Assembly: GCA_963843575.1 (NCBI GenBank)
Contig: CAWJKZ010000013.1
Coordinates: 352,001 to 416,000, forward strand
Source of the DNA: an uncultured Acidobacteriota bacterium
GTDB lineage: Bacteria; Acidobacteriota; UBA6911
DNA length: 64,000 nucleotides
Direction of reading: 5' to 3'
Shown: positions 4,751 through 46,092 of the stretch, one piece after another
Layout of the letters: the number at the start of each line of letters is the position of its first letter
Numbering within the stretch: position 1 is the stretch's first letter
Position numbers and translations under genes: made by a program
Notes under the pieces: generated by a model
What the model was told of the DNA's origin: nothing
The model's database searches: none
Seen by the model: the letters and a program-made list of their open reading frames with translations, nothing else

Positions 4751-4987
4751 GAATGTGGCCAACGGGGTATAACGCTCATGAAATTCATTCGCCTCCTGCT
4801 CCACAACCTCTGGAGTGCGGTGCCTCGGCGCCGCTGTCTGGATTTCGCTGCACCGGTAGACAGCTGCGGGAGGGCGGCGCCTAGGCGCCGCCCACAAAGC
4901 GGCGTCGAGCCGCCGCACTCCAGAGGGAATGTGGCCAACGGGGTATAACGCTCATGAAATTCATCCGCCTCCTGCTCCACAACCTCT
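4751..4987 (+). repeat. 61-bp direct repeat (4751-4811 and 4927-4987) bracketing a full REP-A doublet (4808-4925)
   Basis: GAATGTGGCCAACGGGGTATAACGCTCATGAAATTCAT(T/C)CGCCTCCTGCTCCACAACCTCT occurs twice with one mismatch. The element between has terminal inverted repeats CTCTGGAGTGCGG / CCGCACTCCAGAG. Confidence 0.95.
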
Positions 4988-6123
4988 TGCGGAACCGCCG
5001 CCGTACGTTCCTGACCGTCTCGAGCATCGCGGTCTCGCTGTTTCTCATCGCGACCCTGCTCACCGTGCTGCACGAGATGGAGAACCCGCCGCAGACGCCC
5101 GATTCGGCGCTGCGGTTGATCGCGCGGCACCGTGTTTCGCTGGCCAACATCCTTCCGATGTCCTATCGCGCCAAGATTCAGCGCATGGAAGGCGTCGACT
5201 CCGCCGTGGGGTCCATGTGGTTCGGGGGCGTGTACAAAGAACCCAAGAACTTCTTCGCCAACTTCGCCGTCGACACCGATCAGTTCTTCCGGGTCTATTC
5301 CGACGTGCAGATGCCCGAGGAGCAGAAGCAGGCGTTCCTGAAGGACCGGACGGGCGCCATCGTGGGGCAAAGCCTGGCCGAACGCTTCGGCTGGAAACTG
5401 GGCGACAGGATCACGCTCCAGGGGGCCCTGTTCGACTTCGATGCGGAGCTGACCGTGCGCGGCATCTACACCGGCGGCGGCGACGACGGCAGCACCCTCT
5501 ATTTCCAGTGGGCCTATTTCAACGAGGGGATGAAGAAGGTGTTCGGCAATGCGGGCGAGGAGGTGAACTTCACCGGCTTCTACGCGATCCGGGCGGAGTC
5601 TCCGGAACTGGTTCCCGCGATCGCCGAGCGCGTCGACGCGGAGTTCAAGAACACGAGCGCTCCCACCAAGACCGAGAGCGAGAAGGCCTTCGTCCTCGGC
5701 TTCATTTCGATGATGGGCAACGTCCGGCTGCTCGTGACCAGCATCTGTTCCGTCGTGATCTTCACGATCGTGCTGGTCGCCGCCAATACAATGGCCATGT
5801 CGATCCGGGAGCGCGTGCGCGAGATCGGCATCCTCAAGGCGCTCGGCTTCCGCCGCGCCCAGATACTGAGCATGCTGCTGGGCGAATCGATCCTCCTCTC
5901 GATGGGGGGCGCCCTGCTGGGCGCCTGCGCCGCGAAATTCCTGTATTCGGGGGCGAAGATGGGGGCGGTGACGGGCGGCATGTTCCAGCGGTTCTACGTG
6001 ACGCCGGGGATTGTGGCGCTCTGCGCCGCCATCGGCCTCGCGGTGGGCCTGGTGTCCGCCGGTGTCCCCGCCTGGCAGGCCGCGCGCCGCAAGGTCGTGG
6101 ACGCGCTGCGCGAGATTGCCTGA
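4954..6123 (+). CDS. ABC transporter permease (MacB/FtsX family)
   Basis: NLLRNRRRTFLT start, SIRERVREIGILKALGF motif, 4-TM architecture. Confidence 0.93.
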   Translation: MKFIRLLLHNLLRNRRRTFLTVSSIAVSLFLIATLLTVLHEMENPPQTPDSALRLIARHRVSLANILPMSYRAKIQRMEGVDSAVGSMWFGGVYKEPKNFFANFAVDTDQFFRVYSDVQMPEEQKQAFLKDRTGAIVGQSLAERFGWKLGDRITLQGALFDFDAELTVRGIYTGGGDDGSTLYFQWAYFNEGMKKVFGNAGEEVNFTGFYAIRAESPELVPAIAERVDAEFKNTSAPTKTESEKAFVLGFISMMGNVRLLVTSICSVVIFTIVLVAANTMAMSIRERVREIGILKALGFRRAQILSMLLGESILLSMGGALLGACAAKFLYSGAKMGAVTGGMFQRFYVTPGIVALCAAIGLAVGLVSAGVPAWQAARRKVVDALREIA

Positions 6124-6151
6124 GGGCCGCGGGAGGTCCAGAGGAAGCGAC

Positions 6152-7309
6152 ATGAAGATACCTTTGCGCTACAACATCGGCAGCCTGTGGGTGAGACGGA
6201 CCGGGACCCTGATGGCCGTGCTCGGGATCGGGTTCACCGTCTCGATCGTGGTCGTGATGATGGCCCTGGTCAACGGCCTCGACTCCACCTTTGTCGACAC
6301 CGGCCAGGAAAACCAGCTCATCGTCATCCGGAAAGGCGGCCTGAACGAGGTCAACAGCTACTTTCTGCGCGACCTCTATCCGACCATCAAGTTCATGCCG
6401 GGCATCGCCAAGGCGGCTGGGGGCGAGCCGTTGGTGGTCGGCGAGAGCATCGTCATTGTCAACCACACGCGGCTGAAGGGCGACACGTCCAATCTCATCG
6501 TGCGTGGCACGTCGGAAATGGGCTATGTCCTGAGGCCCGAGGTGAAGGTCGTCGAAGGGCGCACGTTCCGGCCCGGCCTGCGCGAGATCAACGTGAGCCG
6601 CTCGGTTTCGAAGCGCTTCCAGAGCATGGCGCTCGGTCAGAGCGTCCACTTCGCCCGCAGCGACTGGAAGGTGGTCGGCGTCTTCGACGCGGCGGGAACC
6701 GCATTCGACTCGGAGGTGTGGGCGGATTACGGCGACATCAGCGACGAGTGGGGGCGCCCCAGCTACTCGTCGATCCTGCTCCGGGCGGAAAACGCGAACG
6801 CCGCCGCCGACATCCAGAAGAGGATCGCCGCCGACCGGCGCCTGAATCTGCAGGCCCTGCAGCAGCGCGCCTACTACGCCGAGCAGACCTCCACCTCGAT
6901 CGGGATCAAGGCCCTCGGGTATTTCATCGCGATCGTGATGGGGATCGGGGCGAGTTTCGCGGCCATGAACATGATGTACTCGGCGGTGATGTCGCGCTCC
7001 AAGGAAGTCGCCACCCTGCGCGCCATCGGGTTCCGCAAGCGGAGCATCCTTGCGTCTTTCCTCATGGAATCGGTTCTCCTGGGGATCGCGGGAGGCGTCC
7101 TCGGCTGCCTGCTCGCGCTCCCCATGCACGGGCTGTCGTCCGGCACCGCCAATTTCCAGACGTTCAGCGAGGTCCTGTTCAATTTCCGGATCACACCGGG
7201 GATCCTGATGAAGGGCGTGCTGTTTTCGGCGGTCGTCGGGGCGCTCGGCGGTTTCCTGCCGGCGCGCAAAGCGGCCCGCGCGCCGCTGATCTCCGTGATG
7301 CGCGACTAG
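6152..7309 (+). CDS. ABC transporter permease (MacB/FtsX family)
   Basis: ATG 6152 after GAGGAAG; MYSAVMSRSKEVATLRAIGF motif; ends GGFLPARKAAR. Confidence 0.93.
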   Translation: MKIPLRYNIGSLWVRRTGTLMAVLGIGFTVSIVVVMMALVNGLDSTFVDTGQENQLIVIRKGGLNEVNSYFLRDLYPTIKFMPGIAKAAGGEPLVVGESIVIVNHTRLKGDTSNLIVRGTSEMGYVLRPEVKVVEGRTFRPGLREINVSRSVSKRFQSMALGQSVHFARSDWKVVGVFDAAGTAFDSEVWADYGDISDEWGRPSYSSILLRAENANAAADIQKRIAADRRLNLQALQQRAYYAEQTSTSIGIKALGYFIAIVMGIGASFAAMNMMYSAVMSRSKEVATLRAIGFRKRSILASFLMESVLLGIAGGVLGCLLALPMHGLSSGTANFQTFSEVLFNFRITPGILMKGVLFSAVVGALGGFLPARKAARAPLISVMRD

Positions 7310-7320
7310 TGTGCCGGTGG

Positions 7321-7346
7321 TGGGCCGCGGCGGCTCGCCGCGGCCC
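7321..7346. repeat. REP-A variant hairpin (GGGCCGCGGCGGCTCG.. type)
   Basis: TGGGCCGCGGCGGCTCGCCGCGGCCC resembles the reverse complement of 38731-38757. Confidence 0.6.
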
Positions 7347-44090: not shown

Positions 44091-44121
44091 TCTCTGAACT
44101 CTCTACCTACTCCATCCAGAT

Positions 44122-45177
44122 ATGCCCACGAAACGTGTTTTGGTTACCGGCAGCAGCGGTCTGATCGGGTCCGAAGCCGTCCTGTTTTTTGATCGTCTCG
44201 GGTGGGACGTCCACGGGATCGACAACAACATGCGGCGGGATTTCTTCGGTCCCGACGGCGACACGGCGTGGAACCTGAAGCGGCTCCAGGGCGCTGCCGC
44301 GCGCTTTACGCACCACGACACCGACATGCGGGACCGGGAGTCGCTCCTGGAGATCCTGCGGAGCGCCCGACCGGACCTGATCGTGCACTGCGCCGCCCAG
44401 CCCTCACACGATCTTGCCAAAGACCGTGCGTTCGACGACTTCGACGTCAACGCCGTGGGCACGCTCAACCTGCTGGAGAGCGTGCGGCGTTATGCGCCCG
44501 ATTCCCCGTTTGTTTTCATGAGCACCAACAAGGTCTACGGCGACCGGCCCAATCTGGTCCCCGTGAGCGAACTCGAGACCCGCTACGATTACACCCCCGA
44601 ATTTCGCGACGGGATCGACGAGACCTGCCCGGTGGATACCTGCACCCACAGCATTTTCGGGGCCTCGAAACTCGCCGCCGACGTCATGGTCCAGGAGTAC
44701 GGCAGGTACTTCGGCATCCCCACGGTCTGTTTCCGCGCCGGGTGCCTCACCGGCCCGAATCATTCGGGTGTCGAGCTCCACGGCTTCCTTGCCTATCTCG
44801 CGAAGGCGGTGCGGGAAGGCCGCCCGTACCGGATCTACGGCTACAAGGGCAAGCAGGTGCGCGACAACCTGCACTCCTTCGATGTCTGCGCGGCGATGCT
44901 GGAGTTTTACCGCGCCCCGCGTCCGGGGGCGGTGTACAACCTCGGGGGCGGGCGCGACAACAGCGTGTCCCTCCTGGAGGCCGTCGCGAGCCTGGAAGCG
45001 CTCACGGGCAGAAAACTCCCCGTCGAATACGTCGATCGCCCGAGGGTTGGCGACCACATCTGCTACATCACGAACCTGGGCCGGTTCAGGGCGGACTACC
45101 CGGAATGGAAGGTAAGCCGTTCCCTGGAGAGCATCCTGCAGGAACTCGCGCAGCCCGCCCTCAAGGCCAGGACATGA
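44122..45177 (+). CDS. NAD-dependent nucleotide-sugar epimerase/dehydratase (CDP-paratose epimerase-like)
   Basis: [35 protein letters not shown]. Confidence 0.92.
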
Positions 45178-45908
45178 AACTCTCCGTCGTGATCCCGGCC
45201 CGGAACGAGGAGGGGACGGTCGGGTCGACCGTCGATTCCATCCGGAGCCGTCTTCGGCGCGAGGGGATAGCCTACGAGGTGATCGTCGTCGACGACGGGA
45301 GCTCCGACGGAACGGCTTCCGAGGTCGAGAAACGCTCCCGGGAAGACGCCGACGTCCGGTTGCTGCGGAATGGGGGGCCGAACGGGTTCGGATACGCCGT
45401 CGCCACGGGGCTCGATGCCTTCCATGGGGACGCGGTCGCCATCATGATGGCGGACGGGTCCGACGACGTCGAGGACCTCGTCCGCTACTTCGTCATCCTG
45501 CGGGACAGCGCGGAGTGCGCCTTCGGCTCCCGCTTCGTGGCGGGGGGCCGGGTCGAGGGTTACCCGAAGTTCAAGCTCGTGATCAACCGGCTGGCCAACT
45601 TCTTTGTGCGGGTCTTGTTCGGGATCGGCTACAACGACGTCACGAACGCGTTCAAGGGGTATCGCGCCAACGTTATTCAGGGCTGTCGCCCCTTGCTGTC
45701 GCGGCACTTTAATCTGACGGTAGAGTTACCGCTGAAGGCCATCGTGCGCGGCTATTCGTACGAGGTCGTCCCGATCGGCTGGCGGCAGAGGACTTGGGGC
45801 GAATCGGCCTTGCACCTCAAGGAGATGGGGAGCCGATACCTTTTCATCGTCCTGTACGTCTGGCTGGAGAAGCTCCTCTGCAAGCGCGACTACCGCAGAG
45901 TCGAATGA
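45174..45908 (+). CDS. GT2 glycosyltransferase (polyprenol-phosphate/DPM1-like)
   Basis: [41 protein letters not shown] overlap with the epimerase. Confidence 0.92.
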
Positions 45909-45914
45909 CGCACG

Positions 45915-46092
45915 CGCCAACCCCAAGTGTCTTTAAATCCAGAGGCTGTCCAACGGTTGAACCACCCGGCCTGCCGGAAAAACAAGTGGGTCCGGGCTTC
46001 AGCCCGGACGTCTTTAAATCCGTTCCATATAGTTCCACCTGCCCTGCATAGCGACTGCAAACTGCGTCCGGGCTGAAGCCCGGACCCACTTG
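45915..46092. repeat. REP-B composite copy 3, doublet core inverted relative to copy 2
   Basis: Carries the same AGAGGCTGTCCAACGGTTGAACCACC module; spacer 46011-46064 is the reverse complement of 25170-25223 with 5 mismatches. Confidence 0.92.

What the first reader, a model, noticed from the sequence alone, without database searches (positions are those of the whole stretch)
4751..46092. Candidate system: palindromic-repeat-driven cassette insertion with long duplications
Seen: independent loci share a pattern. (i) A 61-bp duplication around a REP at 4751-4987. (ii) A 59-bp duplication, starting in a REP arm and ending at a -10-like TGTGGTATG, around vapBC at 37930-38792. (iii) A mazEF-like module between co-oriented REP arms at 31978-32708. 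(iv) Duplicated REP-B fragments around a ~40-bp module at 25076 and 45915. Inference: repeats act as entry sites through which small cargo, notably TA modules, is inserted while the neighbouring promoter is copied and kept intact. This would be an integrase-free analogue of cassette capture. The mechanism is a hypothesis only.
Basis: inference. Interest (0 to 1): 0.75.

Follow-up and report, generated by a model that had tools for sequence, protein, structure and literature searches.

The report
Repeat-rich region, one toxin-antitoxin insertion
The four repeat-flanked spots are real but have different origins, and only one, a small toxin-antitoxin gene pair bracketed by a 59-base duplication, looks like a true cargo insertion, so the proposed general repeat-driven cassette system is not supported.

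Summary
All four features exist. A same-genus genome (G001) separates them. (i) 61-bp duplication around a REPIN with no cargo; the ABC operon is ancestral and G001 lost it. (ii) vapBC is lineage-specific; both breakpoints lie at the REPIN that fills G001's gap, and a 59-bp duplication brackets it. (iii) mazEF is shared with G001, between two separate REPINs, no duplication. (iv) The module is an IS-type end, 142 copies, 111 in REP-B loops. Genome-wide tests fail: REPs fill 19 of 37 window gaps versus 582 of 3644; empty sites of 92 gene indels are not REP-enriched (8/35 vs 110/577; 10/47 vs 86/544); outside the window 1 of 13 TA-like loci is REP-flanked on both sides; only vapBC among the 92 has a long unique duplication. 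No cognate RAYT found. Best reading: REPIN amplification that copies flanks, one insertion with long target duplication as described for restriction-modification genes (PMC2853133), and REP-targeting MITE ends. Scan notes reported the MITE in this genome and long REP duplications in other genomes.

The parts
4731..4750 (+). Native upstream region of the ABC operon, with TGAATA (4745-4750) at -35 distance; not duplicated
   Evidence: Same motif at the same place in the G016 orthologue
4751..4811 (+). Copy 1 of the 61-bp duplication: -10-like TATAAC, ATG and first 11 codons of the permease
   Evidence: 60 of 61 identical to copy 2
4808..4926 (.). REPIN-A (inverted REP-A doublet), orthologous to the one at this site in G001
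   Evidence: 94% over 117 nt, best hit in all DNA held; fold
4927..4987 (+). Copy 2 of the 61-bp duplication, start of the intact gene
4954..6123 (+). FtsX/MacB-type ABC permease, ancestral in the family, missing from G001
   Evidence: Pfam; 15 of 50 family genomes at E<=1e-110, not G001
25080..25102 (+). Half REP-B hairpin ending at its loop
25102..25120 (+). IS-type terminal repeat GAGGCTGTCCAACGGTTGA, followed by a short linker
25139..25252 (.). REPIN-B of a multicopy type
   Evidence: spacer has 25 copies in G000
31978..32001 (+). Single REP-A arm, collapsed remnant of a whole REPIN present in G001
   Evidence: alignment
32023..32588 (+). mazEF-like pair (32023-32268, 32265-32588), shared with G001 at the same site
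   Evidence: PF02452
32593..32708 (.). Complete REPIN-A, orthologous to G001's
37853..37955 (.). Chimeric REPIN: REP-A left arm and body joined to a REP-C right arm through the shared arm core
37930..37988 (+). Copy 1 of the 59-bp duplication (REP-C arm plus about 35 unique nt)
37997..38413 (-). vapC (PIN toxin)
   Evidence: PF01850 E 1.4e-9
38410..38649 (-). vapB (FitA-like ribbon-helix-helix antitoxin)
   Evidence: PF22513 E 6.7e-8
38660..38688 (-). vapBC's own palindromic promoter/operator; likeness to relatives stops here, at the REP-C head
   Evidence: alignments with L169, L179; function inferred
38690..38758 (.). Complete REPIN-C (GTGG-headed inverted doublet)
38734..38792 (+). Copy 2 of the 59-bp duplication; its last 12 nt are shared with G001 upstream of the MFS gene
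45915..45941 (+). REP-B fragment with its hairpin deleted
45942..45960 (+). Second IS-type terminal repeat
45980..46093 (.). REPIN-B, inverted 92% copy of 25137-25252

Best explanation
Three separate processes meet in an unusually REP-dense stretch. (1) REPINs stall or nick DNA, and repair or rolling-circle-like copying now and then duplicates the REPIN with tens to hundreds of bases of its flank; later deletions leave flank-REPIN-flank scars. This gives (i) and cargo-free cases in both genomes. (2) A horizontally acquired vapBC operon (about 700 bp, operator to stop codon) entered the HD/MFS gap by insertion with long target duplication. Most simply the target was REPIN-C plus 35 bp, about 104 bp, and the left copy was later shortened to 59 bp by deletion through the arm core shared by REP-A and REP-C. 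(3) An IS-derived miniature element targets REP-B loops, giving (iv). mazEF (iii) is an older resident whose two neighbouring gaps each hold a REPIN. Shown: anatomy, presence/absence against G001, enrichment tests. Inferred: order of events, the break/repair chemistry, the 104-bp original target, and any enzyme.
For: Window gaps with REP 19 of 37 versus 582 of 3644 genome-wide. After dropping 126 of 218 candidate blocks as split-gene artefacts, empty-site REP rates are 8/35 vs 110/577 (p=0.66) and 10/47 vs 86/544 (p=0.31); 3 of 92 blocks have a flanking direct repeat and only vapBC's includes unique non-tRNA sequence. Cargo-free duplications of gene ends or flanks at REPs: G000 C13:356751, C19:166437, C22:29860; G001 C12:748959, C6:226020, C12:231893, C5:129186, C12:81775. 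Flank capture and tandem REPIN-plus-flank units are in print (PMC3333891; PMC3116915); REP hairpins are amplification-junction hotspots in E. coli (PMC3161906). 46-47-bp target duplications with no mobile gene are described for RM genes (PMC2853133). Three distant vapC relatives are bracketed by duplicated host sequence with no REP-A/B/C match.
Against: All three lineage-specific TA modules with a syntenic counterpart have a REP in the counterpart gap, though one is the discovery locus and one has the REP only in the genome lacking the TA. PIN/PemK modules are REP-flanked on both sides in 3 of 9 (p=0.005) when the two window cases are counted. The unfiltered indel set gave 25/94 vs 86/544, p=0.018. 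The vapBC unit ends right at a REP head. Raw flank-repeat rates are only 6/649 REP clusters vs 12/2104 control gaps in G000 (12/289 vs 4/873 in G001). One sister genome, 2.8 of its 6.7 Mb, a home-made gene caller and a partial TA catalogue limit the power.
Confidence: 0.7

Rival explanations
1. One reading: REP arms are dedicated entry sites; a RAYT-like nickase acting in trans pastes small cassettes, notably TA modules, and copies the neighbouring promoter.
For: Locus (ii): breakpoints at the REPIN, cassette ends at the REP-C head. 3 of 3 lineage-specific TA sites have a REP in the counterpart gap. E. coli TnpA-REP cleaves at a distance from BIMEs and was proposed to capture genes (PMC3333891).
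Against: No REP enrichment at empty sites; 1 of 92 blocks has the signature; 1 of 13 TA-like loci outside the window is flanked on both sides; G001's two private vapBC modules show no duplication; none of three Y1 hits in G000/G001 has a REP within 900 bp and the best scores 42.6 against a cut-off of 80 for NF047646; (i), (iii), (iv) have other origins.
Confidence: 0.12
2. At (ii) duplication and TA gain were independent: a REP-C arm with its 35-bp flank was copied into the REP-A arm by conversion or tandem amplification, and vapBC landed in the same permissive gap at another time.
For: Cargo-free flank copies at REPs recur, one of them 3 kb from its source across a REPIN array (G001 C12:81775/84819). 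REP content of this gap is wholly different in G001. Copies are 10% diverged.
Against: The TA unit fills the space between the copies almost exactly: 8 bp from the stop codon on one side, operator against the REP head on the other.
Confidence: 0.3
3. At (i) the REPIN itself inserted into codon 11-12 of the permease with a 61-bp target duplication before the G000/G001 split, and G001 later lost both flanks; alternatively it hopped or amplified locally after the split.
For: Left copy plus 20 bp matches the native upstream region in G016; scan notes e1-811346 and e1-7003557 report long duplications at REP/RAYT-like insertions elsewhere (unchecked).
Against: Copies differ at 1 of 61 while fourfold sites differ by 33% between the genomes; probability 2e-4 at 16% per lineage but 0.11-0.45 at the REPIN's own slower rate. 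Seven clean REP presence/absence sites of 64 examined show 0-1 bp duplications.
Confidence: 0.45

Closest known systems
REP/BIME/REPIN amplification with flank capture (TnpA-REP/RAYT; PMC3333891, PMC3116915, PMC2817692; passages read)
   Same: Intergenic hairpins with a 4-nt head, inverted doublets, tandem arrays that include flanking DNA, captured gene fragments, lineage-specific turnover.
   Different: REP-A has a GGAG head, not GT(A/G)G; no REP-flanked RAYT found in either incomplete genome; host looks acidobacterial (TIGR03436 hit), not gammaproteobacterial.
Insertion with long target duplication of restriction-modification genes (Furuta, Abe, Kobayashi 2010, PMC2853133; passages and Discussion read)
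   Same: Addiction-type gene pair, no integrase or transposase, duplication over 30 bp, insert under 20 kb, absent from a relative.
   Different: Cargo is vapBC, an RNase toxin rather than a DNA-cutting enzyme (PIN function from general knowledge); the duplicated target includes a REP arm; G001's site keeps only 12 nt of the target, so it is not a clean single-copy empty site.
REP- or hairpin-targeting IS elements and MITEs (IS1397/ISKpn1 cited in PMC3333891; IS1272 of the IS1182 family, PMC5678879 abstract)
   Same: Ends sit in hairpin loops: 111 of 142 follow a REP-B half-hairpin; same 4-mer on both sides in 7 of 13 converging pairs.
   Different: Most ends are unpaired within 6 kb (77 of 101); no transposase with these ends found; the two IS1182-like elements of G000 have other ends.
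Integron cassettes (from general knowledge) and MITE-flanked units such as IMU (PMC3184786, passages read)
   Same: Compact cargo next to a hairpin-forming site.
   Different: No integrase sought or implied, no array, no matched pair of identical terminal elements, cassette carries its own promoter, and long duplications are not an integron footprint.

Membership tests
REP/REPIN | Abundant, extragenic, palindromic, in inverted doublets | tested here: met
   PWM hits in confident genes versus elsewhere: A 6/414, B 2/350, C 8/295; folds
REP/REPIN | GT(A/G)G head next to the hairpin | tested here: inconclusive
   REP-B and REP-C start GTGG; REP-A starts GGAG
REP/REPIN | Cognate RAYT flanked by the same REPs | tested here: not met
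   3 Y1 hits in G000/G001, none with REP within 900 bp; genomes 88% and 81% complete; flanks of Y1 genes in other family genomes not seen
Insertion with long target duplication (RM type) | Complete two-gene module, insert under 20 kb, duplication over 30 bp | tested here: met
   vapBC about 700 bp, 59-bp repeat at 90%
Insertion with long target duplication (RM type) | Relative holds one copy of the duplicated target at the empty site | tested here: inconclusive
   G001 shares only the last 12 nt and carries a different REPIN
Insertion with long target duplication (RM type) | Cargo is a restriction-modification system | tested here: not met
   cargo is PIN/RHH
IS-derived MITE | Paired terminal inverted repeats, short target repeat, no transposase, many copies | tested here: met
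   13 converging pairs, 11 of them 99-425 bp apart; TGAA/TTCA at 78 of 101 ends; 118 copies in G000
IS1182 family | Full-length element with these ends and an IS1182 transposase | tested here: inconclusive
   DUF772 elements of G000/G001 do not carry these ends; loci in other genomes not seen; no viral hit
Repeat-driven TA cassette system (proposed) | TA and small genes enriched between repeat arms; gains concentrated at REP-bearing gaps | tested here: not met
   1 of 13 outside the window; 4/19 and 5/27 for blocks up to 1.5 kb versus 19% and 16% background
Repeat-driven TA cassette system (proposed) | Excised circles or empty junctions in populations | tested here: inconclusive
   No joint skipping vapBC in 4 low-coverage contig sets

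The most novel reading that the evidence does not exclude
Insertion with long target duplication is not limited to restriction-modification genes: vapBC modules use it too (this locus plus three distant relatives), and a REPIN can supply the break or priming site with no RAYT or integrase nearby, so that a regulatory flank is regenerated downstream of the insert.
Probability: 0.3. Interest if true: 0.6.

Novelty: new member of a known kind. Interest (0 to 1): 0.33.

Why it matters
How lone TA pairs enter chromosomes without an integrase, and what footprint REPINs leave, are both unsettled (PMC3337134 and PMC3333891 say the mechanism of REPIN movement is unknown). This genus offers several dated scars and one TA case that matches the RM-type long duplication. 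It also shows how a REP-dense window can mimic a cassette system.

Tried and rejected
REP enrichment at empty sites: p=0.018 in the raw G001-only set and an apparent excess in divergent gaps (5/15, 8/16) faded after removing 126 of 218 blocks as split-gene artefacts (3/9 vs 22/144, p=0.17; 2/5 vs 10/143, p=0.053). ABC operon as cargo at (i): rejected, adjacency to the upstream gene is kept in G016. Split-REPIN capture (one arm each side of cargo): 6 of 92 blocks have REPs on both sides, five with mixed families or separate REPINs; one G001 block (C5:138475) has an A+ arm left and an A- arm right and was not examined further. REP-like flanks on TA relatives: apart from the window's own locus, 1 of 105 flank pairs had a PWM hit, a weak terminal-repeat score; no mazF locus of 19 shares the window's neighbours. 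Direct repeats around vapC relatives 6/89 vs 2/150 control windows, p=0.055; three of the six are dispersed repeats, simple repeats or terminators. Dropped from TA counts: a 365-aa PIN protein (C13:506726) and a 779-aa frame (C23:85557). ParE, HicA, HicB and Gp49 searches found nothing in G000. Read laying gave shallow contigs; joints at REP arms are probably other loci. An empty site for mazEF was not seen: G006 and G016 hold the downstream aminotransferase and no mazF match, but their flanks were not read. Literature searches found no paper on REP-driven TA insertion or on long REPIN target duplications; the library lacks most subscription papers, and supplements (e.g. Fig. S7 of PMC3333891) were not read.
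Full report
Observation. All four features are at the stated places. The window is G000:C13:352001-416000. Three hairpin families (my labels REP-A, -B, -C) and a 19-nt terminal repeat are abundant and almost wholly outside confident genes. The window is exceptionally rich: 19 of 37 gaps of 60 bp or more hold a REP against 582 of 3644 genome-wide, and the 64-kb tile that overlaps its first half ranks first of 104. At that density a gene unit has REPs on both sides about a quarter of the time (0.51 squared, my arithmetic), against 149 of 3617 genome-wide.

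Comparison genome. G001 (same genus, 81% complete) is syntenic over the first 51 kb of the window at about 79-94% DNA identity. I compared 2.8 of its 6.7 Mb, using my own gene caller (5813 and 2533 genes) and 1637 reciprocal best hits.

Locus (i). Only a REPIN lies between the 61-bp copies. G001 has the same REPIN, with shared derived changes, directly after the upstream stop codon (94% over 117 nt, best hit in all DNA held), and lacks window 4730-8315. That is a loss in G001, not an empty site: the permease has close orthologues in 15 of 50 family genomes, and in G016 it lies downstream of a homologue of the same upstream gene. G016's upstream region shares TGAATA and the -10-like hexamer with the left copy, so the left copy plus 20 bp is the native promoter region, and the right copy regenerates only the -10-like hexamer and start codon. 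Either the REPIN inserted with a 61-bp duplication before the split, or it amplified or hopped locally afterwards; 1 difference in 61 favours a recent event at fourfold-site rates (p=2e-4) but not at the REPIN's own rate (0.11-0.45). Seven clean REP presence/absence sites, of 64 examined, show 0-1 bp duplications, so long ones are exceptions.

Locus (ii). G001 has a 164-bp gap with one intact REPIN-A and no vapBC. The DNA was not found in 4 other genomes searched; the toxin matches 4 of 50 family genomes and not G001, and its best relatives span many phyla at 44-67%, which points to horizontal gain. Alignment with G001 runs through the left REP-A arm to 37879 and resumes at 38780. Likeness to relatives runs from the operator near 38688 to the vapC stop at 37997. 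Right of it stands a complete REPIN-C; left of it a REP-A body fused to a REP-C right arm. The simplest history (inferred) is insertion of the 700-bp operon with duplication of REPIN-C plus 35 bp, then deletion through the arm core shared by A and C. A public contig confirms the right junction.

Locus (iii). mazEF sits at the same site in G001; the left 'arm' is the remnant of a whole REPIN that G001 still has, and the right arm begins a complete orthologous REPIN. There is no duplication.

Locus (iv). The module starts with a 19-nt end found 142 times, 111 directly after a REP-B half-hairpin; 13 converging pairs exist, with the same 4-mer on both sides in 7. G000 has 118 copies at one mismatch, G001 none, 13 of 50 family genomes some. 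G001 carries REP-A at both sites. These are MITE or IS ends in REP loops, as scan note e1-6900071 says; I could not confirm its IS1182 assignment.

Genome-wide tests. Of 218 candidate lineage-specific gene blocks, 92 survived a nucleotide filter. Their empty gaps hold REPs at background rates (8/35 vs 110/577; 10/47 vs 86/544). Three of 92 have a flanking direct repeat: vapBC, a bare REP-C arm and a tRNA-like end (tRNA label by eye). Of nine PIN/PemK modules in G000, three have REPs on both sides, two of them the discovery loci; 1 of 7 remains, p=0.26. Six further TA-like loci add none, one of them in the same island as a counted module. In the G001 DNA held, 2 of 12 TA-like loci are flanked on both sides, one being the shared mazEF.

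What is general. Duplication of gene ends or flanks beside REPs, without cargo, recurs: three cases in G000 and five in G001 that I inspected. Raw rates were 6/649 REP clusters vs 12/2104 control gaps in G000 and 12/289 vs 4/873 in G001; most G000 control hits look like repeats inside coding DNA, and I did not view the four G001 controls. This matches the nick-primed BIME amplification model with capture of flanking gene fragments (PMC3333891, passages), tandem REPIN-plus-flank units (PMC3116915, passages) and template switching at REP hairpins (PMC3161906, passages). No REP-flanked RAYT was found in either genome, so enzyme-free template switching is as likely as a RAYT missing from the assemblies.

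A lead beyond REPs. Among 89 distinct loci of vapC relatives, 6 have a bracketing direct repeat against 2 of 150 control windows (p=0.055). Three are duplicated host sequence: 194 bp at 94% (L207), at least 55 bp at 98% (L212), 55 bp at 91% (L232), none with a REP-A/B/C match. With locus (ii) these resemble insertion with long target duplication described for RM genes (PMC2853133, passages and Discussion); the term 'toxin' does not occur in that paper's text, and searches listed no paper that makes the case for TA modules. No empty sites were checked for those three.

Other papers: PMC2817692, PMC3686654, PMC3337134, PMC3184786, PMC10273834 and bioRxiv 10.64898/2026.09.22.753630 seen as passages; PMC5678879 as abstract. 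No supplements were read.

Verdict. The observations are real; the unifying system is not supported. One TA insertion with a long, REP-containing duplication is a good new example of a known kind, and the wider TA version is a testable lead. Interest 0.33.

Noticed in passing
window 11414, 25080, 45915 versus G001:C6: REP-B and the terminal repeat are absent from the G001 DNA held, which has REP-A at the same gaps: one repeat family replaces another at the same sites.
   Followed up: partly
G001:C12:82871-84256 and G001:C6:68353-69738: Two copies of a 462-aa ORF that reads like a group II intron reverse transcriptase (label recalled, not tested) sit inside REPIN-A arrays.
   Followed up: no
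G000:C21:327605-328029: A terminal-repeat pair encloses about 380 bp that reads like the start of an IS110-type transposase (label recalled, not tested): cargo capture by the MITE ends rather than by REP arms.
   Followed up: no
G001:C12:181003-183610: G001's second mazEF and two more genes are bracketed by a 98-bp, 85% repeat that runs into CTCGAAG-type short repeats, with no REP-A/B/C.
   Followed up: partly
L207:692-885/1875-2068, L212:1-55/1194-1248, L232:1035-1089/1962-2016: vapBC relatives in three unrelated bacteria are bracketed by duplicated host sequence; in two it reads like a GIY-YIG nuclease gene (label recalled).
   Followed up: partly
window 1957-1970, 34122-34135, 37840-37853: REP-A ends are followed within a few bases by -10-like hexamers and a nearby start codon, suggesting REP-adjacent leaderless promoters (by eye).
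   Followed up: no
G021 (another family): 23 near-exact REP-A copies in a distant genome while most closer genomes have 0-6: possible horizontal spread of the repeat.
   Followed up: no
window 29004-31922: A TonB-dependent receptor gene is in pieces in different frames; frameshift or sequencing error.
   Followed up: no
window 8238/19551 and 36483-36588: Further dispersed repeat families built on short periodic motifs; see scan note e1-1491606.
   Followed up: no
G001:C6:209955-210613: A G001-only vapBC lies between an upstream stop codon and a REPIN about 4 kb before the window's syntenic start, with no duplication.
   Followed up: yes
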